DNA of 64,000 nt from Candidatus Poribacteria bacterium (GTDB lineage: Bacteria > Poribacteria > WGA-4E > PCPOR2b). Under the pieces are notes generated by a model that ran no database searches, was not told where the DNA came from, and saw only the letters and a list, made by a program, of their open reading frames with translations. The stretch is taken from NCBI GenBank assembly GCA_965208325.1, contig OZ242326.1, positions 4,368,153-4,432,152 of the forward strand. Reading direction: 5' to 3'. Numbering within the stretch: position 1 is the first letter of the stretch; each line of letters starts with the position of its first letter. This document shows positions 37,347 to 44,415 of this stretch, in pieces. A program made the position numbers and the translations under genes.

Positions 37347-39343
37347 GTTCTTGTAGGTTGGGTTACGCTAGATTGTAGGGAATTCATGATTCATTAAAAC
37401 ACGAAACGCCTGCGTTGTAGCTAACTGTTTCTTAAAACACCACTTAACCCAACCTACAAGAACTGGTGTATTGATTGCGTTCGAGAATTGTCAGTGCGCG
37501 GTGAAACCCAACGCCTTTCAAATCTCGAGAGTGCAGAAAAGCGTTGGGTTTCGCTGCGCATAATTTGGAATTGGGCGTGTTTTGTGTAATGAACGGTCAA
37601 CGCAATTGGAACGGTTTTGGGATAATCCGCTCTACCCAACCTACAAAGACTAGCGTCTTCGGTGCGTGATGAATTCAAATTCTTTACACCTGTCGCCCCG
37701 CTGGGGCTTCGGCATTAGTGAGTTGGTGCGCATTTTGTAGGTTGGGTAGAGCGAGATTATTGAAACATGCGGTTATTAGGCATAGGGCTGGTGTGTTGAT
37801 TGTGTTCAAGAATTGTCAGGCGTAGCGATAGCCAACGCATTTTAAATATCGGGAGTGCAGAAAAGCGTTGGGTTTCGCTGCGCATAATTTGGAATTGGGC
37901 GTGTTTTGTGTACTGAGCTGTCAACGCAATTGGAACGGTTTTGGGATTATCCGCTCTACCCAACCTACAAAGACTAGCGTCTTCGGTGCGTGATGAATTC
38001 AAATTCTTTATACCTGTCGCCCCGCTGGGGCTTTCAATGATTGGAGAATTGTCGTTTCTATACACCTGTCGCCCCTCCGGGGCTTCGGCATTAGTGAGTT
38101 GGTGCGCATTTTGTAGGTTGGGTTGAGCGGGATTGTTGAAACATGCGGTTATTAGGCATAAGGCTGGTGTGTTGATTGTGTTCAAGAATTGTCAGTGCGC
38201 GGTGAAACCCAACGCCTTTTAAATCTCGAGAGGTCAGAAAAGCGTTGGGTTTCGCTACAGGTAATTTGGAATAGGCAATGTTTTGTGTACTGAGCTGTCA
38301 ACGCAATTGGAACGGTTTTGGGATAATCCGCTCTACCCAACCTACAAAGACTAGCGTCTTCGGTGCGTGATAAATTCAAATTCTTTATACCTGTCGCCCG
38401 TCCGGGGCTTCGACATTAGTGAGTTGGTGCGCATTTTGTAGGTTGGGTAGAGCGAGATTATTGAAACATGCGGTTATTAGGCATAGGGCTGGTGTGTTGA
38501 TTGCAATTAAGAATTGGTAGTGCGCGGAGAAACCCAACGCCTTTTAAATCTCGAGAGTGCAGAAAAGCGTTGGGTTTCGCTGCGCACAATTTGGAATTGG
38601 CAGCGTTTTGGGTTGTGAACCGTCAACGGAATTGGAACGGTTTTGGGATTATCCGCTCTACCCAACCTACAAAGACTAGCGTCTTCGGTGCGTGATGAAT
38701 TCAAATTCTTTATACCTGTCGCCCCGCTGGGGCTTCGGCATTAGTGAGTTGGTGCGCATTTTGTAGGTTGGGTAGAGCGGGATTGTTGAAACATGCGGTT
38801 ATTAGGCATAAGGCTGGTGTGTTGATTGTGTTCAAGAATTGTTAGTGCGCGGAGAAACCCAACGCCTTTTAAATCTCGAGAGTGCAGAAAAGCGTTGGGT
38901 TTCGCTGCGCACAATTTGGAATTGGCAGCGTTTTGGGTTGTGAACCGTCAACGGAATTGGAACGGTTTTGGGATTATCCGCTCTACCCAACCTACAAAGA
39001 CTAGCGTCTTCGGTGCGTGATGAATTCAAATTCTTTACACCTGTCGCCCCGCTGGGGCTTCGGCATTAGTGAGTTGGTGCGCATTTTGTAGGTTGGGTAG
39101 AGCGAGATTATTGAAACATGTGGTTATTAGGCATAAGGCTGGTGTGTTGATTGCAATTAAGAATTGGTAGTGCGCGGTGAAACCCAACGCCTTTTAAATC
39201 TCGAGAGTGCAGAAAAGCGTTGGGTTTCGCTACAGGTAATTTGGAATAGGCAATGTTTTGTGTACTGAGCTGTCAACGCAATTGGAACGGTTTTGGTATA
39301 ATCCGCTCTACCCAACCTACAAAGATTACAAAGTCTACAAAGA
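37347..39343 (+). repeat. Tandem array of a ~325-bp nested-palindrome unit (1 partial and 5 full units plus a terminal half-site)
   Basis: CTCTACCCAACCTACAAAGA occurs at 37630, 37954, 38331, 38656, 38981 and 39306, with spacings of 324, 377, 325, 325 and 325. A leading inverted pair, GTTCTTGTAGGTTGGGTTA (37347) ... TAACCCAACCTACAAGAAC (37445), precedes the array. No credible ORF is present. Confidence 0.95.
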
Positions 39344-39415
39344 CATGAAAATAGAAACGCAATGGAAATGCGGTAAAAATCTGTTTTGCCGAGTGCACAA
39401 GGAGGCGGGACGCCT

Positions 39416-41098
39416 ATGAACGCTGCGGTAATTGCGGTTGTTGTGTTGATTCTGTATTTTTTGGGGTACCGTTACTACTCGAAGTTTCTCTCCGAGAAGA
39501 TTTTTCGGCTTTCTGACGATGAACCGATGCCCTCGCATGAGCTCGAAGACGGCGTGGATTATGTTCCGACTAACAAACACGTCCTGTTTGGGCACCACTT
39601 CTCGTCGATTGCCGGCGCCGCGCCGATTATCGGACCCGCGATTGCCGTGTTTTGGGGCTGGCTGCCTGCGATTCTCTGGGTGGTGCTCGGAACAATTTTT
39701 ATGGGTGCGGTGCACGATTTCAGTGCGCTCGTGGTCTCCGCCCGGCGGAAGGGGCGGTCCGTCGGAGACCTCGCCGGGTTGCTGGTGAATTCCCGCGCAA
39801 GAACGCTGTTTCTGATAATCGTCTACTTCTTGATTTTTTTCGTCCTGGCGGTCTTCGCATACGCCATCGCCAGCCTGTTCGTCAAATATCCGACAAGTGT
39901 GCTGCCCATTAATTTCGAGATTGCCGTGGCGCTCGCTATCGGTTTTCTGCTCTATCGAAAAGGGATTCCGCTGCTCTGGCCGTCCATAATTGCGCTGCTC
40001 ATGCTTTATGTCATGGTCTGGGTGGGGACACGCGTGCCGATACCGATGCCCGAAATCATGGGCAGCCAAAAGGTGACGTGGATTATCTTGCTGCTGGGCT
40101 ACTCATTCGTTGCGTCGGTATTGCCGGTGTGGTTGCTGCTGCAGCCGCGCGACTATATCAACTCCCACCAACTCTTCGTCGGGTTGGCGGTGATGTTCTT
40201 GGGGCTGATGGTGGCGCATCCGACGATGCAGGCGCCGGCAATCAACCCCAACCCCGACGGCGCTGTTCCGATGTTTCCGTTCATCTTTGTAACCATCGCG
40301 TGCGGCGCAATCAGCGGGTTTCACGGGCTGGTTTCGAGCGGCACCACATCGAAGCAATTGGATAAAATGACGCACGCGCGGCACGTCGGATACGGCGGAA
40401 TGTTGGGCGAGGGAACGTTGGCGATGTTCGCCACGCTCGCGGTGGCTGCGGGGTTGAGCCGCAGCGAGTGGCTCACGCACTACCACGATTGGCATGCGGC
40501 GAGCAGCGGCGGCATCACCAATTTCGTGCTCGGCGCTTCCACGTTCTTGCAGGCGCTGAAGATTCCCGAACTTTTGGCGAACACGTTTATTAGCGTCATC
40601 GTCATCAGTTTCGCCGCGACGTCGCTCGATACCGGCACGCGAATTCAGCGCCTGATCGTCGGCGAACTCGGCGCGGCGTATAAGATAAAGGGGTTCCAAA
40701 ACCGCTACATCGGCGCGGCGCTGGCGGTTGTGCCCAGCCTGCTGCTGGCGCTGCTCGTTGAAGCGCCGAACCTCGGACCCGGTTCAGGCGGTTTCCTGCT
40801 CTGGCCGCTGTTCGGTGCGAGCAACCAGCTCGTCGGCGGGTTGACGCTGCTGGTGGCAACGATTTTCCTCTGGAAATCGGGACGCCCCATCATCTATACG
40901 TTGATACCGATGTTCTTCCTGATATGCATGACGACGGGCGCCATGATACTGAACTTTAAGTCGTTCTGGCATAACCCGCTGCTGCTCGTCCTCTCCGCGA
41001 TAATTCTGGCGCTCGAGGTCTGGTTGATTTTGGAGGCGGTTGCCGTGTTCAAGAGCCGGCGCGGCGGCGCAAGCGGCGTCCCGCAAGAGGCGGATTAG
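39416..41098 (+). CDS. cstA: Carbon starvation protein A (peptide/pyruvate transporter family)
   Basis: ATG at 39416 with AAGGAGG 10 nt upstream. Sequence MNAAVIAVVVLILYFLGYRYYSKFL...FGHHFSSIAGAAPIIGPAIAVFWGWLPA is a typical CstA N-terminus. About 560 aa, polytopic. Confidence 0.92.
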   Translation: MNAAVIAVVVLILYFLGYRYYSKFLSEKIFRLSDDEPMPSHELEDGVDYVPTNKHVLFGHHFSSIAGAAPIIGPAIAVFWGWLPAILWVVLGTIFMGAVHDFSALVVSARRKGRSVGDLAGLLVNSRARTLFLIIVYFLIFFVLAVFAYAIASLFVKYPTSVLPINFEIAVALAIGFLLYRKGIPLLWPSIIALLMLYVMVWVGTRVPIPMPEIMGSQKVTWIILLLGYSFVASVLPVWLLLQPRDYINSHQLFVGLAVMFLGLMVAHPTMQAPAINPNPDGAVPMFPFIFVTIACGAISGFHGLVSSGTTSKQLDKMTHARHVGYGGMLGEGTLAMFATLAVAAGLSRSEWLTHYHDWHAASSGGITNFVLGASTFLQALKIPELLANTFISVIVISFAATSLDTGTRIQRLIVGELGAAYKIKGFQNRYIGAALAVVPSLLLALLVEAPNLGPGSGGFLLWPLFGASNQLVGGLTLLVATIFLWKSGRPIIYTLIPMFFLICMTTGAMILNFKSFWHNPLLLVLSAIILALEVWLILEAVAVFKSRRGGASGVPQEAD

Positions 41099-41192
41099 TG
41101 ACTTTCCTGACAATTTGAGAATAGCATCGGTACTAAATTTGTGACATTAGGATGGGATTGCCGATTCTTCAACGGATTCAAGGAGGATGAAA

Positions 41193-42656
41193 ATGAAAAG
41201 ACTGTGTGTGATAAATATCGCATTGATCGTTGTGTTTTTATTCAGTGCTATGTTTAGTGTCGAATCCGCAAGCGCGGATCATGATCCGGTTATTGATAAC
41301 GACAAGGAAGCCCCGGATTTTTCGCTGCCGGACACGAATAATCGAAACGTGACCCTAAGCGAGCATGAGGGGAAGGAGAACATCGTCCTGGTCTTTTACC
41401 GAGGGCAGTGGTGACCGTCCTGTATTGACCAGCTCGTTGAGCTGCAGCCGCATTACACCCGCGTTCGCGAACTCGGCGCCGAAATGTATGCCATCAGCGT
41501 GGACAAACACGCCGACTCGATACGCGTGCTCGTGCAAGGGAACAACAGACACAATACTAAAGTGACGTTTCCTATTCTATCAGACATTGGTGATGGAGAT
41601 GTGAGAAACGGTACCAAAGCTGCAACCATTAAGAATTACGATATCTTTGATGCGAACATCAGTGGCGCTAAACCCGCTACTTTCATTGTCGACAGAGACG
41701 GTATTATTCGTTGGCATGAGGTAGGCAGCAAAAATCATCGGGTAAATTTCAGTACCGTGATCGACGTGCTTGAGGACCTTAGCGAACCACCGAACACTGC
41801 GCCTGTGATTAAAGGAAGGATTTCGGATCTCTCTGTCCGATCCGATGAACGGCTAGTCTTCGATCTGTCCCCTCACGCGTCCGATGCGGAGGAGTCGCCG
41901 GGCAGCCTGCGGTGGGAAGTGGAGCCAACGAAAACCGAGTATTTTACCGCTGAAATCAACGGCCATCAACTCACAATCACTCCGTTCCCGGACGAATACG
42001 GTGAGAGAAGCATTACATTGAGGCTTTTTGATTCCGCCGGTGACATGGATTCGCAATCGCTGCTCGTCAGGGTCATCCCGGGACCGAATGTCCAGAAAAC
42101 GATTCGCTTGACTGTCCACGACGGGTTAAACCTGATGCACCTTCCGATCAACGTGAAAACCGTCAACGGCGCGCCGGGGACTATCACCCGAATCAGCGAC
42201 CTTTACGAGGTGCTCGGCGGGGCCGCGAATGTCCACTGGCTGGTAACGAGTTCCCCGGGCAAGCCGGGAGGGGAAAACGAGTTGAAACCGTATTTCGGGG
42301 GCGTGAACGATTCAAGCATAGATGCCGAAACGGGCATATTCGCCGCGCTCAAAGCGCCGAGAACACTGCATCTTGTCGGTACTCTGCTCAATGCGCCGCT
42401 TCACCTCAATCCGGGTTGGAACATCGTGGGCATCCCGCACTACGACAGCGGTATTTTTCTTCTCAGCGACCTGGCTTGGATAAACGAGATTCAGGGCAAC
42501 GCGTCCCAAATTGCGGTATTCGAAGATGGTAAATTTTATGCGAATGCGCCAAGCGACATTATCAAAAGCACCCAGTCCGACAGGAGATTAGAAACGGGGC
42601 AGGCGATCCTGATAGAAATGACGGGCGCCGCAAGGATAACGCTGCCGTTGAAATAA
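41193..42656 (+). CDS. Secreted peroxiredoxin-like (AhpC/TSA, PRX-like CxxC type) protein with probable selenocysteine at TGA 41412..41414, plus a large C-terminal extension
   Basis: ORFs 41187..41414 and 41484..42656 share one frame and are separated only by a single TGA. Read-through gives NIVLVFYRGQW-U-PSCIDQLVELQ, so the TGA sits at the first Cys of the redox-active WCxxC motif. A signal peptide is present, and a hairpin lies 15 nt downstream of the TGA. AAGGAGG favours the ATG at 41193. Confidence 0.65.
41430..41444 (+). promoter_or_regulatory. Candidate bacterial SECIS hairpin
   Basis: CAGCTC-GTT-GAGCTG, a perfect 6-bp stem with G and U in the loop. The loop G lies 21 nt after the UGA, inside the spacing window I recall for bacterial SECIS elements. 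Confidence 0.4.
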
Positions 42657-42699
42657 GTTGGCTCCCTGAATCATATCTCTGAATCGGGTCACTCCGCTA

Positions 42700-43731
42700 A
42701 TGAACCCAACCCAAATCTCAAGCACTATTCGCGAGGGTATAGCGGACCGCGTCTTCCCCGGCGCGGTGGCTTACATCGTCGAAAGCGGCAACTTATCCTA
42801 TTACGAAGCATTCGGGAACCGGATGATTCAACCGGATGTTAAGCCGATGCACCGCGGCACAATCTTCGATATCGCATCGCTCACCAAACCCATGGTCATC
42901 TCGACGCTCGCCCTGCGCCTCGTCGAGTCCGGCGGCATCGATCTGCGCGCCCCCGTCCGAGACCGCCTCCCCGAATTTTCGCATCCGGAGGTGACGGTTT
43001 ACCACCTGCTGACGCACACCTCCGGACTGCCGGCGTGGCGGCCGCTGTATCTGGATACCGCATCCAAAGAGGACGTTGTTAAACATCTGGGGCAGATGCG
43101 GCTGGAACAGCCGCTGGGCGCGAAAGTCGAATACAGTTGCCTTGGCTATATCCTGCTCGGCGCGCTCATTGAACGCGCCGCGGGGAATTCGCTCGACCGC
43201 TTGGCTGACGAACAGATTTTTCAGCCGCTTGGAATGTCAGAAACGCGGTATAATCCGCCGGAATCGTGGATAGACTGTATCGCCGCGACGGAAGATTCCA
43301 ACAGCTTTGAAAAACGCATTGCCGACCATCGCCGCTACGACTGGCGGGAGGGGGTGAACGTTGGCGCGGTGCACGACGAGAATGCCCATTATCTCGGCGG
43401 CGTGTCGGGAAACGCGGGCTTATTCTCAACGGCTGAGGACGTTTCGAAATATTGCCGCATGATAATTGACGGCGGAGACGGCGTGTTGACGGAGCAGGGC
43501 GTGGCGCAGATGTCAGCGGTTCAAACGAAGGGATTGAATGAATCGCGCAGTGTGGGTTGGATTATCTTGGAGGACGGCTCGCTCTACCACACCGGATTCA
43601 CCGGAACTTCGATCCGAATCAATTTGCAAAGCAGGTCATTTGCCGTTTTGTTGACGAACCGCGTTCACCCGAGCGCATTCGGTCCCAGCATGGTGGAATT
43701 TCGCGCCAAATTTCATCAGGAAATTTTTTGA
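42700..43731 (+). CDS. Serine hydrolase of the beta-lactamase / penicillin-binding (class C-like) family
   Basis: 343 aa with the active-site S-x-x-K in FDIASLTKPMV. The later GFTGTS motif is typical of this family. Confidence 0.85.
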   Translation: MNPTQISSTIREGIADRVFPGAVAYIVESGNLSYYEAFGNRMIQPDVKPMHRGTIFDIASLTKPMVISTLALRLVESGGIDLRAPVRDRLPEFSHPEVTVYHLLTHTSGLPAWRPLYLDTASKEDVVKHLGQMRLEQPLGAKVEYSCLGYILLGALIERAAGNSLDRLADEQIFQPLGMSETRYNPPESWIDCIAATEDSNSFEKRIADHRRYDWREGVNVGAVHDENAHYLGGVSGNAGLFSTAEDVSKYCRMIIDGGDGVLTEQGVAQMSAVQTKGLNESRSVGWIILEDGSLYHTGFTGTSIRINLQSRSFAVLLTNRVHPSAFGPSMVEFRAKFHQEIF

Positions 43732-43834
43732 TATTGCGGTTACTACAATCATTTCAAGTAAGGAAGAGTGTCCGTAAAATTTGGACGTCTATTATTGATT
43801 CCGAGATAGTGGTAGAGCGAGGTTCGAGCGGTGA

Positions 43835-44376
43835 GCGGGGCAAGATGCCCCGCCTACAAGGCGTGGTGGGGTACGGGGTGGCAAGATGCCCGCCTACAGG
43901 GCGTGGTGGTACACGCGGGGCAAGATGCCCCGCCTACAAGGCGTGGTGGGGTACGGGGTGGCAAGATGCCCCGCCTACGGAGGGTGGGGTGATGATTTAC
44001 GCGGGGCAAGATGCCCCGCCTACAAGGCATGGTGGCACGCTAGGGTTGGGGGAGGCAAGATGCCCGCCTAGGGAGGGTGGGGTGATAGTTTACACGGGGC
44101 AATGAAGATCTCTAGCGCACTCGTTATTCAGTCGCTTGATTTCAGCCTACTGAGGGTAGTGGGATACTTAATGCCTGCCGCCCCTCTGGGGCTATTGATG
44201 TAGGGTGAATTGATGTTGCTATATACCTATCGCCCCTCTGGGGCTTTCGATTTAGGTGAAATAATGATTTTATAATCCTGAGAATCTCAATTGTACTCGC
44301 AATTCACCCGCTCGATCCCGCGCTGGCGCTTTGGCTTATGACAACTGGTGCTGTAAAATATGAACTTTCAAACAGG
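43835..44376 (+). mobile_element. MITE-like element, copy 3 (left arm missing, about 6 degenerate hairpin repeats, extra hairpin modules)
   Basis: GGGGCAAGATGCCCCGCC hairpins run from 43837 to about 44097 with about 40/80-bp periodicity. The right arm (GAAGATCTCTAGCGCACTCGTTATTCAGTCGCTTGATT ... AAATATGAACTTTCAAACAGG, ending at 44376) is homologous to copy 2. Confidence 0.5.
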
Positions 44377-44415
44377 TTTTAAGAAAATCCTTGAATAATT
44401 GAAGGAGAATTAATA

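What the first reader, a model, noticed from the sequence alone, without database searches (positions are those of the whole stretch)
41187..42656. In-frame TGA at the WCxxC redox motif: probable selenocysteine-containing secreted peroxiredoxin-like protein, mis-split into two ORFs
- **Single in-frame stop:** the 75-aa ORF (41187..41414) and the 390-aa ORF (41484..42656) are in the same frame. The only stop between them is the TGA at 41412. Reading through gives ...KENIVLVFYRGQW-[TGA]-PSCIDQLVELQPHYTRVRELGAEMYAISVD...
- **Position of the stop:** the TGA occupies the first redox Cys of the FYRG.WC..C motif of PRX-like / AhpC-TSA thioredoxin-fold proteins, which is the classic position of Sec in UxxC selenoproteins.
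- **Possible SECIS:** a perfect hairpin, CAGCTC-GTT-GAGCTG, begins 15 nt after the UGA and has G and U in its loop. That matches what I recall of bacterial SECIS geometry.
- **Unusual architecture:** the protein has a signal peptide and a ~330-aa C-terminal extension containing an Ig/cadherin-like segment (PPNTAPVIKGRISDLSV...ITLRLFDSAGDMDSQSLLVRVIP). This is an unusual partner for a redoxin domain.
- **Caveat:** Prx-like selenoproteins are known, so the family itself is not new. The fusion and its secretion are the unusual parts, and standard gene callers would miss the gene.
Basis: partly seen in the sequence, partly recalled or inferred. Interest (0 to 1): 0.7.

Follow-up and report, generated by a model that had tools for sequence, protein, structure and literature searches.

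The report
Exported selenocysteine redoxin, split by gene callers
The "stop" codon inside this sponge-symbiont (Poribacteria) gene almost certainly encodes selenocysteine in the active site of an exported peroxiredoxin-like redox enzyme; this is a known kind of selenoprotein, here fused to two extra domains and listed in sequence databases only as a truncated protein.

Summary
One TGA (41412-41414) separates two same-frame ORFs. Reading through it gives one 487-aa protein (start ATG 41193): signal peptide, AhpC/TSA-fold domain with W-U-P-S-C, an Ig-like domain, and an unnamed 190-aa C-terminal module.

- **Conservation:** the TGA sits at the same codon in all 12 Poribacteria orthologue loci, in 5 loci from Planctomycetes, Dehalococcoidia and Chloroflexota, and in 68 of 80 metagenomic relatives.
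- **Cys counterparts:** more distant homologues have Cys there (VLVFYRGQWCPxC).
- **SECIS-like hairpin:** a 6-7 bp hairpin with a G-first loop starts 14-15 nt after the UGA. It is kept through wobble and compensatory changes.
- **Other checks:** an independent sample reproduces the TGA, and TGA ends 13 of 39 long ORFs in the window.
- **Family:** the Prx Thr, Pro and Arg are replaced, so this is not a canonical peroxiredoxin. It fits the known "Prx-like 1, UxxC" selenoprotein family.

Published work supports Sec use in sponge symbionts and Poribacteria.

Verdict: a real but ordinary recoding event. The only new elements are the domain architecture and the uncharacterised C-terminal module.

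The parts
41180..41186 (+). Shine-Dalgarno AAGGAGG, 6 nt before the probable true start ATG 41193
   Evidence: Sequence. The same box and spacing occur in the 9 closest orthologue loci; L013 and L015 have (C/G)(A/G)GGAGG before a GTG start.
41193..42656 (+). Complete selenoprotein gene: 487 codons with one in-frame UGA, TAA stop at 42654-42656.
41193..41276 (+). Sec-type signal peptide MKRLCVINIALIVVFLFSAMFSVESASA, with predicted cleavage after A-S-A
   Evidence: Read from the sequence. The n-h-c layout is conserved in orthologues. No signal-peptide predictor was available, so this is an inference.
41301..41759 (+). AhpC/TSA (Prx-fold) redoxin domain
   Evidence: Pfam PF00578 E 6e-26 and PF08534 E 5e-17. 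Foldseek matches AhpE 1xxu with TM 0.89.
41412..41414 (+). UGA = selenocysteine codon (residue 76 from ATG 41187, residue 74 from ATG 41193), first residue of W-U-P-S-C
   Evidence: Conserved in 12 Poribacteria loci, 5 loci from other phyla and 68 of 80 metagenome relatives. Cys homologues have TGC/TGT at this position. An independent sample has an identical contig.
41421..41423 (+). Cys79 (TGT), the resolving partner of Sec; aligns with the peroxidatic Cys of BCP and AhpE
   Evidence: HMMER alignments to 5enu and 5id2. Invariant in alignment A1.
41430..41444 (+). SECIS-like hairpin CAGCUC-GUU-GAGCUG. The loop G is 21 nt after the UGA. Most orthologues add a seventh G-C pair.
   Evidence: 95.8% of cells paired against 16-51% in slid controls. 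One pair appears as GC (7), GU (5) and AU (4). Background frequency in the window is 1.7%.
41673..41675 (+). Pro163 in A-K-P-A-T-F-I-V-D: a thioredoxin/TlpA-type cis-Pro position that replaces the catalytic Arg of peroxiredoxins
   Evidence: Aligns with the Arg of RSTFLID in 5enu and with R116 of AhpE. Invariant in A1 and at least 90% conserved in A2.
41793..42062 (+). Ig-like beta-sandwich domain (Big_9)
   Evidence: Pfam PF17963 E 4.9e-5, 24.6 bits against a cutoff of 23.6. AF2 pLDDT is 81-97 over this stretch. The domain is absent from the shorter orthologues L013 and L015.
42078..42653 (+). Unnamed all-beta C-terminal module ('module X')
   Evidence: No Pfam hit at E<=10. 263 representative clusters match at E<=1e-3; the eight multi-domain ones sampled carry LRR, Big_1, FlgD_ig, CHU_C or DUF6259. 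AF2 pLDDT 90.9. No PDB fold match.
39386..41098 (+). Upstream neighbour cstA (context, not part of the system)
   Evidence: Pfam CstA E 1e-145. Synteny is kept in the closer orthologue loci.
42700..43731 (+). Downstream neighbour: beta-lactamase-family serine hydrolase with SLTK and no signal peptide, ending in TGA. The adjacency holds even in the distant orthologues L013 and L015.

Best explanation
Window 41193..42656 is one gene. The ribosome reads UGA 41412-41414 as selenocysteine.

**Decoding (inferred from the standard bacterial mechanism).** SelB carrying Sec-tRNA(Sec) binds the small hairpin at 41430-41444, which places its G-first loop 21 nt behind the UGA.

**Product.** The 487-aa precursor is exported through the Sec translocon and cleaved after ASA. 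The mature protein carries three parts:
- A Prx-fold redoxin domain with the thioredoxin-type centre W-Sec-P-S-Cys and a cis-Pro loop.
- An Ig-like spacer domain.
- An uncharacterised all-beta module that also occurs in many large LRR/Ig surface proteins.

**Chemistry (inferred).** Sec is the attacking nucleophile. It reduces a substrate disulfide, or a peroxide or sulfenic acid, and forms a selenenylsulfide with Cys79. An envelope reductant of the DsbD/CcdA type then re-reduces that bond.

The Prx Thr, Pro and Arg are missing, so the protein works like a TlpA/ResA- or PRX_like2-type oxidoreductase rather than a classical peroxiredoxin. The two extra domains probably position the enzyme in the envelope or on a partner.
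For: **Shown**
- One in-frame TGA, with open frame on both sides.
- The same codon is TGA in 12 Poribacteria loci at 39-79% identity, in Planctomycetes L014, Dehalococcoidia L016-18 and Chloroflexota L019, and in 68 of 80 JGI metagenome relatives.
- Cys-containing homologues carry VLVFYRGQWCPxC, encoded by TGC/TGT.
- Residues 31-75, upstream of the UGA, are as conserved (60-71%) as residues 77-200 downstream (34-61%).
- An SD box precedes ATG 41193, and none precedes the downstream ORF.
- All 19 close database hits are N-truncated at 285-397 aa.
- The hairpin is conserved: 95.8% paired, with GC/GU/AU alternation. The Planctomycetes gene has a different hairpin at the same place.
- Best local hairpin energy averages -11.2 kcal/mol in 85 Sec forms against -4.5 in 4 Cys forms.
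- A contig from an independent sample is identical over 41042-42750, and a 96%-identical relative keeps the TGA.
- TGA is an ordinary stop for 13 of 39 long ORFs in the window.
- The fold is Prx-like: AhpE TM 0.89.
- U aligns with the Prx Thr, C79 with the peroxidatic Cys, and P163 with the catalytic Arg.

**From the literature**
- 'Prx-like 1, pfam00578, UxxC' is an abundant marine selenoprotein family (PMC2398784).
- SelA and SelB are enriched in sponge-symbiont bins (PMC5649159).
- Sec-containing hydrogenases are reported from Poribacteria (PMC13582414).
Against: - None lies in the 64-kb window, which has no tRNA and no Rfam hit.
- No other selenoprotein candidate was found in the window.
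- The hairpin is short. Its stem is encoded by the conserved peptide Q-L-x-E-L-Q, so part of its conservation is protein constraint.
- Single-sequence folding is not significant, and no Rfam SECIS model matches.
- The Cys-form control has only 4 sequences, apparently from other lineages, whose base composition was not checked.
- The signal peptide, the redox chemistry, the electron donor and the role of the extra domains are inferred, not shown.
Confidence: 0.88

Rival explanations
1. Pseudogene or two genuine genes. On this reading the TGA is a real stop, giving a 74-aa exported peptide plus a separately translated ~390-aa protein, or a dead gene.
For: Gene callers annotate it this way in every assembly. 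The downstream ORF has an ATG at 41484.
Against: - The stop is conserved at exactly the catalytic position across four phyla and more than 80 loci.
- Both halves are conserved as one domain, and the Pfam and AhpE alignments span the TGA.
- No SD box precedes 41484, and the called starts of the downstream ORF differ between orthologues, giving 298-397 aa.
- The downstream piece would lack both the signal peptide and the active site.
Confidence: 0.03
2. Sequencing or assembly error: the true codon is TGC/TGT and this is an ordinary Cys protein.
For: A single base separates TGA from TGC or TGT.
Against: - A contig from a different sample (X4) is identical over 41042-42750.
- A 96%-identical relative (X6) shows no difference at 41412-41414.
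- More than 10 independent assemblies of orthologues all have TGA.
Confidence: 0.01
3. The UGA is decoded, but not as selenocysteine. Possibilities are near-cognate read-through as Trp or Cys, or a reassigned code, in a genome without Sec machinery.
For: The Sec machinery was not verified in this genome. UGA followed by C is, from memory, a leaky termination context.
Against: - TGA terminates 13 of 39 long ORFs in the window, including the next gene, so there is no reassignment.
- The position is the Cys of a CxxC motif, with Cys in the homologues.
- A conserved hairpin sits at SECIS distance.
- Published work reports SelA/SelB and selenoproteins in sponge symbionts and Poribacteria.
Confidence: 0.05
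4. Rival on function only. The enzyme is mainly a selenium-based peroxidase (GPx-like or Prx-like peroxide scavenger in the envelope) rather than a protein-disulfide reductase.
For: - The fold and closest sequence matches are peroxiredoxins: AhpE, BCP and AhpC.
- C79 sits at the peroxidatic position.
- Sec reacts fast with peroxides without needing the Thr/Arg activation (general selenoenzyme chemistry, from memory).
Against: - The Prx Pro, Thr and Arg are all replaced, and a thioredoxin-type cis-Pro is present.
- The best NCBIfam hit is ResA, far below its cutoff.
- The motif W-[UC]-P-x-C resembles the W-C-x-x-C of TlpA/ResA/DsbE reductases.
Confidence: 0.35

Closest known systems
'Prx-like 1' selenoprotein family (pfam00578, UxxC) of Zhang & Gladyshev 2008 (PMC2398784), first reported from the Sargasso Sea
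   Same: AhpC/TSA-fold domain, Sec as the first residue of UxxC, and Cys homologues at the same site. The family is abundant in marine bacteria: 225 Sec forms in the GOS data set.
   Different: This protein is exported and carries two extra C-terminal domains. [quoted passage not shown] I could not align against their sequences directly.
Cys-containing 'peroxiredoxin-like family protein' / AhpC-TSA family proteins, e.g. P0226 (Aquiflexum balticum 'Peroxiredoxin'), P0203 (Chitinophagaceae) and P0186 (Flavobacteriales). From memory these are the PRX_like2 (cd02970) type.
   Same: Identical active-site context VLVFYRGQWCPxC, a P-I-P-A-T-F-I-I cis-Pro loop, and often a signal peptide; 29-37% identity.
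   Different: They have Cys (TGC/TGT) in place of Sec, a single domain, and no stable hairpin behind the codon in the 4 examined.
Mycobacterium tuberculosis AhpE (1xxu, 4x0x) and BCP/PrxQ (5enu)
   Same: Same fold (TM 0.89-0.91, about 29% identity). Cys79 aligns with the peroxidatic Cys.
   Different: The catalytic Thr is replaced by Sec, Pro by Arg, and Arg by Pro163. The window protein has a UxxC centre where these have TxxC, so it is not a canonical peroxiredoxin.
ResA / TlpA / DsbE (CcmG) extracytoplasmic thiol-disulfide oxidoreductases
   Same: Exported, with a W-C-x-x-C-type motif and a cis-Pro loop x-P-x-T-F-x-I-D. ResA is the best NCBIfam hit (E 5e-15), and PDB ResA and DsbE chains match.
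   Different: The scores are far below the family cutoffs (55.8 against 170 bits). The sequence is closer to the Prx branch.
E. coli fdhF-type bacterial SECIS and the SelB/tRNA-Sec system
   Same: A stem-loop just downstream of the UGA, with a G at the start of a small apical loop about 20 nt from the UGA. The fdhF geometry is from memory; the window's geometry is.
   Different: The helix is much shorter (6-7 bp, 3-nt loop), with no bulged U evident. SelB binding was not tested.
Eukaryotic Prx-like selenoproteins SelL/SelU and the NCBIfam 'SelL-related redox protein' NF040769
   Same: Prx-like fold with Sec in a CxxC-type motif. There is a weak NF040769 hit (E 2e-7).
   Different: The hit scores 30.8 bits against a cutoff of 120, so this is not a member.

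Membership tests
Bacterial selenoprotein (UGA-Sec recoding) | In-frame UGA conserved among orthologues, with coding conservation on both sides | tested here: met
Bacterial selenoprotein (UGA-Sec recoding) | Homologues with Cys (TGC/TGT) aligned to the UGA | tested here: met
   P0172, P0174, P0176 and P0203 carry FYRGxWCPxC, with codons TGC or TGT.
Bacterial selenoprotein (UGA-Sec recoding) | SECIS stem-loop immediately downstream, with a G in a small apical loop about 16-37 nt from the UGA | tested here: met
   Hairpin at 41430-41444 with loop GUU 21 nt after the UGA. It is conserved with pair-preserving changes, and chance frequency in the window is 1.7%. Caveats: no Rfam match, and single-sequence energy is not significant.
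Bacterial selenoprotein (UGA-Sec recoding) | selA, selB, selC (tRNA-Sec) and selD present in the same genome | not testable with these tools
None of these genes is in the window. For the lineage only: PMC5649159 and PMC13582414, plus unchecked AI notes on other Poribacteria genomes.
Bacterial selenoprotein (UGA-Sec recoding) | Selenium shown in the protein (75Se labelling or mass spectrometry) | not testable with these tools
   This needs an experiment.
Peroxiredoxin proper (AhpC / BCP / AhpE) | Prx fold, with Pfam PF00578 above its cutoff | tested here: met
   91.2 bits against a cutoff of 26. Foldseek TM 0.89 to AhpE.
Peroxiredoxin proper (AhpC / BCP / AhpE) | Catalytic P-x-x-x-T-x-x-C motif plus the conserved Arg | tested here: not met
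   Pro is replaced by Arg72, Thr by Sec76, and Arg by Pro163 (alignments). No NCBIfam peroxiredoxin model comes near its cutoff.
'Prx-like 1' selenoproteins (pfam00578, UxxC; PMC2398784) | pfam00578 domain with Sec in a UxxC motif | tested here: met
   A direct alignment to the published sequences was not possible.
ResA / TlpA / DsbE thiol-disulfide oxidoreductases | Family model score above its cutoff | tested here: not met
   NF002854 ResA scores 55.8 against 170 bits, and TIGR00385 DsbE scores 25.2 against 123. The protein may work like these enzymes, but it is not a member.
Bacterial Ig-like domain Big_9 (PF17963) | Pfam score above the gathering cutoff, and a beta-sandwich fold | tested here: met
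   24.6 bits against a cutoff of 23.6, which is marginal. The AF2 beta-sandwich has pLDDT 81-97.

The most novel reading that the evidence does not exclude
The Poribacteria protein may be a surface- or matrix-targeted selenoenzyme. On this reading, the C-terminal module is an undescribed all-beta fold shared with more than 250 clusters of LRR/Ig/T9SS-type surface proteins. It would tether a Sec-based reductase or peroxidase to the cell envelope or to a host-matrix partner, giving the symbiont an extracellular selenium-dependent defence or remodelling activity in the sponge.

A second point concerns the wider clade with the motif F-[YLIF]-R-G-x-W-U-P-x-C. It would be almost obligately Sec-dependent: among the 80 nearest metagenomic relatives, 68 have Sec, none has Cys in this motif, and one has Leu.
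Probability: 0.25. Interest if true: 0.55.

Novelty: new member of a known kind. Interest (0 to 1): 0.35.

Why it matters
- **Annotation.** It corrects a systematic error. Every database copy of this Poribacteria protein found here is a truncated fragment that lacks its signal peptide and its active site.
- **Biology of the lineage.** It adds an exported, multi-domain member to the Prx-like UxxC selenoproteins, in a sponge-symbiont lineage where published work reports Sec use.
- **Distribution.** All 17 genome-derived loci with this motif carry an export signal, lipobox or membrane anchor, and 68 of the 80 nearest metagenomic relatives carry Sec at the site.
- **Side product.** It exposes a widespread, unnamed, confidently modelled domain with no solved structural relative. 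That domain could be worth a family description.
- **Limits.** Nothing here changes how Sec decoding is understood.

Tried and rejected
- **RNA searches of the window.** Rfam found nothing over the whole window at gathering thresholds and nothing over 41380-41520 at E<=10. ARAGORN found no tRNA in the window and no tRNA-Sec in 32 related loci.
- **Other selenoproteins in the window.** A scan for other TGA-split ORF pairs gave 57 mechanical candidates. None apart from this gene looked like a coding read-through.
- **Single-sequence folding.** Folding of 41405-41480 gave z = 0.97, no better than shuffles. The case for the hairpin rests on comparative data.
- **RNA runs.** The search for RNA runs returned only the same four untyped runs. 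Coverage of X4 is even across genes, so it looks like DNA, and no expression evidence was obtained.
- **Full-length AF2 model.** pTM is only 0.42, and the C-terminal part was poorly modelled. No inference was drawn from domain-domain arrangement.
- **Earlier notes.** A search of earlier findings by sequence found nothing for this protein.
- **Rejected readings.** Canonical peroxiredoxin (catalytic triad absent), pseudogene, two genes, sequencing error, and TGA reassignment.
Full report
**1. What is in the sequence**

- ORF 41187..41414 and ORF 41484..42656 share a frame. The only stop between them is TGA at 41412-41414.
- Read-through gives a 489-aa protein with ...VLVFYRGQW-U-PSCIDQLVELQ....
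- AAGGAGG at 41180-41186 abuts ATG 41187 but lies 6 nt before ATG 41193. The 9 closest orthologue loci have the same box and spacing and begin at the equivalent of 41193; L013 and L015 have a similar box before a GTG start. The gene is therefore 41193..42656, 487 codons.
- No SD box precedes the ATG at 41484.
- The N-terminus (MKRL, a 19-residue hydrophobic core, then ASA|D) reads as a Sec-type signal peptide. This is an inference, because no predictor was available.

**2. Domains**

- Pfam finds AhpC-TSA at residues 40-176 (E 6e-26), Redoxin, and a marginal Big_9 Ig-like domain at 203-292.
- AF2 with a 23-sequence alignment models the redoxin and Ig-like parts well (pLDDT 80-97).
- Foldseek places the redoxin domain on peroxiredoxins. 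AhpE 1xxu matches with TM 0.89 and rmsd 1.8 Å.
- HMMER alignments to BCP (5enu) and AhpE (5id2) align Sec76 with the Thr of the Prx T-x-x-C motif and Cys79 with the peroxidatic Cys. Arg72 takes the place of the motif Pro, and Pro163 takes the place of the catalytic Arg, which is R116 in AhpE.
- The domain therefore has the Prx fold but a thioredoxin-style W-U-P-x-C centre and a cis-Pro loop (A-K-P-A-T-F-I-V-D). This is the layout of the "peroxiredoxin-like" CxxC proteins and of TlpA/ResA-type exported reductases.
- No NCBIfam model reaches its cutoff. The best is ResA, at 55.8 bits against a cutoff of 170.

**3. Is the TGA a selenocysteine codon?**

*Truncated database entries.* The word-indexed protein search returned 19 close relatives. 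All are N-truncated (285-397 aa, at most 83% coverage) and none is full length. That is the signature of a stop that gene callers respect.

*Poribacteria orthologues.* I fetched the DNA of seven of these hits, which gave ten loci (L001-L010) and seven distinct orthologue sequences. Each shows a 71-74-aa ORF followed by a 298-380-aa ORF in the same frame, joined by a TGA at the same codon: FYRG[QTEK][WF]-U-P[SHL]C.

*Other phyla.* A scan of GTDB species representatives added four complete Candidatus Poribacteria chromosomes. Two of them have a shorter, 370-aa form. The scan also added single-domain relatives in Planctomycetes, Dehalococcoidia and Chloroflexota. All of these have TGA at this codon.

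*Metagenomes.* Among 80 JGI metagenome relatives:

| Residue at the Sec position | Loci | Note |
|---|---|---|
| TGA (Sec) | 68 | 59 are UxxC, 9 are UxxS |
| Cys | 11 | different family, TlpA-like WC[GEP]PC |
| Leu (TTA) | 1 | L086 |

*Cys counterparts.* More distant homologues (29-37% identity) are named "peroxiredoxin-like family protein" or "AhpC/TSA family protein". They have VLVFYRGQWCPxC with TGC or TGT. This completes the classical Sec/Cys pair criterion.

*Selection on both sides.* Residues 31-75, upstream of the UGA, are 60-71% identical among orthologues. Residues 77-200 are 34-61% identical.

*Not an error, not a reassignment.* A contig from a different sample (run X4) is identical over 41042-42750. 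A 96%-identical relative (run X6) shows no change at the codon. TGA ends 13 of 39 long ORFs in the window, including the next gene.

**4. The recoding signal**

- CAGCUC-GUU-GAGCUG lies at 41430-41444 and begins 15 nt after the UGA. Most orthologues extend it to 7 bp with a closing G-C pair.
- The loop is always G-first: GUU, GGA, GUG, GGU or GGC.
- On a 17-sequence alignment, 95.8% of cells pair, against 16-51% when the 3' strand is slid by 1-3 nt. One pair occurs as G-C (7), G-U (5) and A-U (4), with its only mismatch in the Planctomycetes sequence. 9 of 500 shuffles reach the covariation score.
- The Planctomycetes gene has a different hairpin, CUCCAA-GGUC-UUGGAG, at nearly the same distance.
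- Across 85 Sec forms, the best local hairpin averages -11.2 kcal/mol. Across 4 Cys forms it averages -4.5 kcal/mol. This control is small and possibly confounded by base composition.
- In the window, 1.7% of all TGA trinucleotides have a comparable hairpin by chance.

Caveats on the hairpin:
- The stem is encoded by the conserved peptide Q-L-x-E-L-Q.
- Single-sequence folding is not significant.
- Rfam has no match.
- The geometry fits what I recall of bacterial SECIS elements: a small apical loop with G, about 16-37 nt after the UGA.

**5. What could not be tested**

The presence of selA, selB, selC and selD in this genome is therefore unverified.
- The window holds none of these genes, and no second selenoprotein candidate.
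- For the lineage, Slaby et al. 2017 report SelA and SelB co-occurring in most sponge-symbiont bins (PMC5649159). A 2026 survey lists Sec-containing hydrogenases from Poribacteria (PMC13582414).
- Earlier AI notes describe selB-tRNA-Sec and selA loci in other Poribacteria genomes. I treat these as leads only.

**6. The rest of the protein**

- The 190-aa C-terminal part (42078-42653) has no Pfam match even at E<=10.
- phmmer against 1.84 billion representatives finds 263 clusters at E<=1e-3 and 150 at E<=1e-10.
- Most of the 150 best hits are long proteins of up to about 4,400 aa. Of ten sampled, two short ones have no Pfam hit, and seven of the other eight carry LRR and/or Big_1 domains. Three of those end in a FlgD_ig domain, one also matching CHU_C (T9SS-type C-terminal domains), and one carries DUF6259 instead.
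- With an alignment that includes these relatives, AF2 gives a confident all-beta model. pLDDT is 90.9 and pTM 0.85 for the best of five models; the others score 67-80.
- Foldseek finds no PDB relative. The best hit has E 0.04 and TM at most 0.25.
- The two deep-branching Poribacteria orthologues (L013, L015) lack the Ig-like domain but keep this module. The redoxin-module pairing is therefore the older one.
- The module occurs only once in the window.

**7. Context**

- The gene order is cstA, then the selenoprotein gene, then a beta-lactamase-family serine hydrolase (SLTK motif, no signal peptide), then an amino-acid permease.
- This order is kept in the closer Poribacteria. Only the pairing with the hydrolase gene persists in L013 and L015.
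- Nothing links these neighbours functionally.

**8. Interpretation and comparison**

- The gene encodes an exported UxxC selenoprotein of the known "Prx-like 1" type: pfam00578, UxxC, 225 Sec forms in the GOS data set (PMC2398784).
- It is not a canonical peroxiredoxin, because the catalytic triad was tested and is not met.
- It most likely works as an envelope thiol/selenol-disulfide oxidoreductase. Sec would be the nucleophile, Cys79 the resolving residue, and the intermediate a selenenylsulfide. A peroxidase role is a live alternative.
- The genome-derived relatives I examined also carry a signal peptide, lipobox or membrane anchor. The clade appears to be extracytoplasmic.
- The new elements are the Poribacteria-specific three-domain architecture, the uniformly wrong database annotation, and the unnamed C-terminal module.

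**Verdict.** The finding is ordinary in kind.

Noticed in passing
window 42078-42653 (also L013:3526-4086 and L015:3547-4107): This is an unnamed all-beta domain of about 185 aa. Its consensus reads ...F.L.VP.G.SLIHLPL.VT.V.G...TI.SISDLYDALGG..NV..LIT...LTDD.GII...L.G..LG...I.L..G.NLVG.PL.DSRI.RVSDL...GGQ.F. It has no Pfam hit. 263 representative clusters match it; the multi-domain ones sampled mostly carry LRR/Big_1 domains, some with a FlgD_ig (T9SS-type) end. The AF2 model is confident and has no PDB fold match. It is a candidate new domain family; its taxonomic range was not determined.
   Followed up: partly
window 42700-43731; L013:4196-5224; L015:4216-5244: A cytoplasmic-looking beta-lactamase-family serine hydrolase gene (SLTK motif, no signal peptide) directly follows the selenoprotein gene in all Poribacteria loci. 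This holds even in the distant short-form orthologues, where cstA is no longer upstream. The reason for the linkage is unknown.
   Followed up: partly
L052, L064, L072, L090, L097-L099, L105, L108 (JGI metagenome loci): A subgroup of single-domain relatives has F-F-R-G-T-W-U-P-N-S. It carries Sec but has Ser in place of the resolving Cys, making it a UxxS variant. Its SECIS-like hairpins differ from the Poribacteria one.
   Followed up: no
L086 (JGI metagenome contig WNFY01278512.1): One relative has TTA (Leu) at the Sec position, a single base away from TGA, in an otherwise intact FLRGTW-L-PNC context. It could be an inactive variant, a read error or a pseudogene.
   Followed up: no
L016-L018 (Dehalococcoidia), L014 (Planctomycetes), L019 (Chloroflexota): The single-domain Sec relatives in other phyla all look extracytoplasmic. 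The Dehalococcoidia ones have a lipobox (L-A-A-C-G-G-G), the Planctomycetes one has N-terminal membrane helices, and the Chloroflexota one has a signal anchor plus a Pro/Thr-rich linker.
   Followed up: partly
window 37500-39300 and 43830-44380: Contigs of runs X1 and X4 show many alternative joints between the repeat array upstream of cstA and the repeat-rich spacer at 43.8-44.4 kb. This fits dispersed copies of one repeat family, which earlier notes on this window had already described.
   Followed up: no
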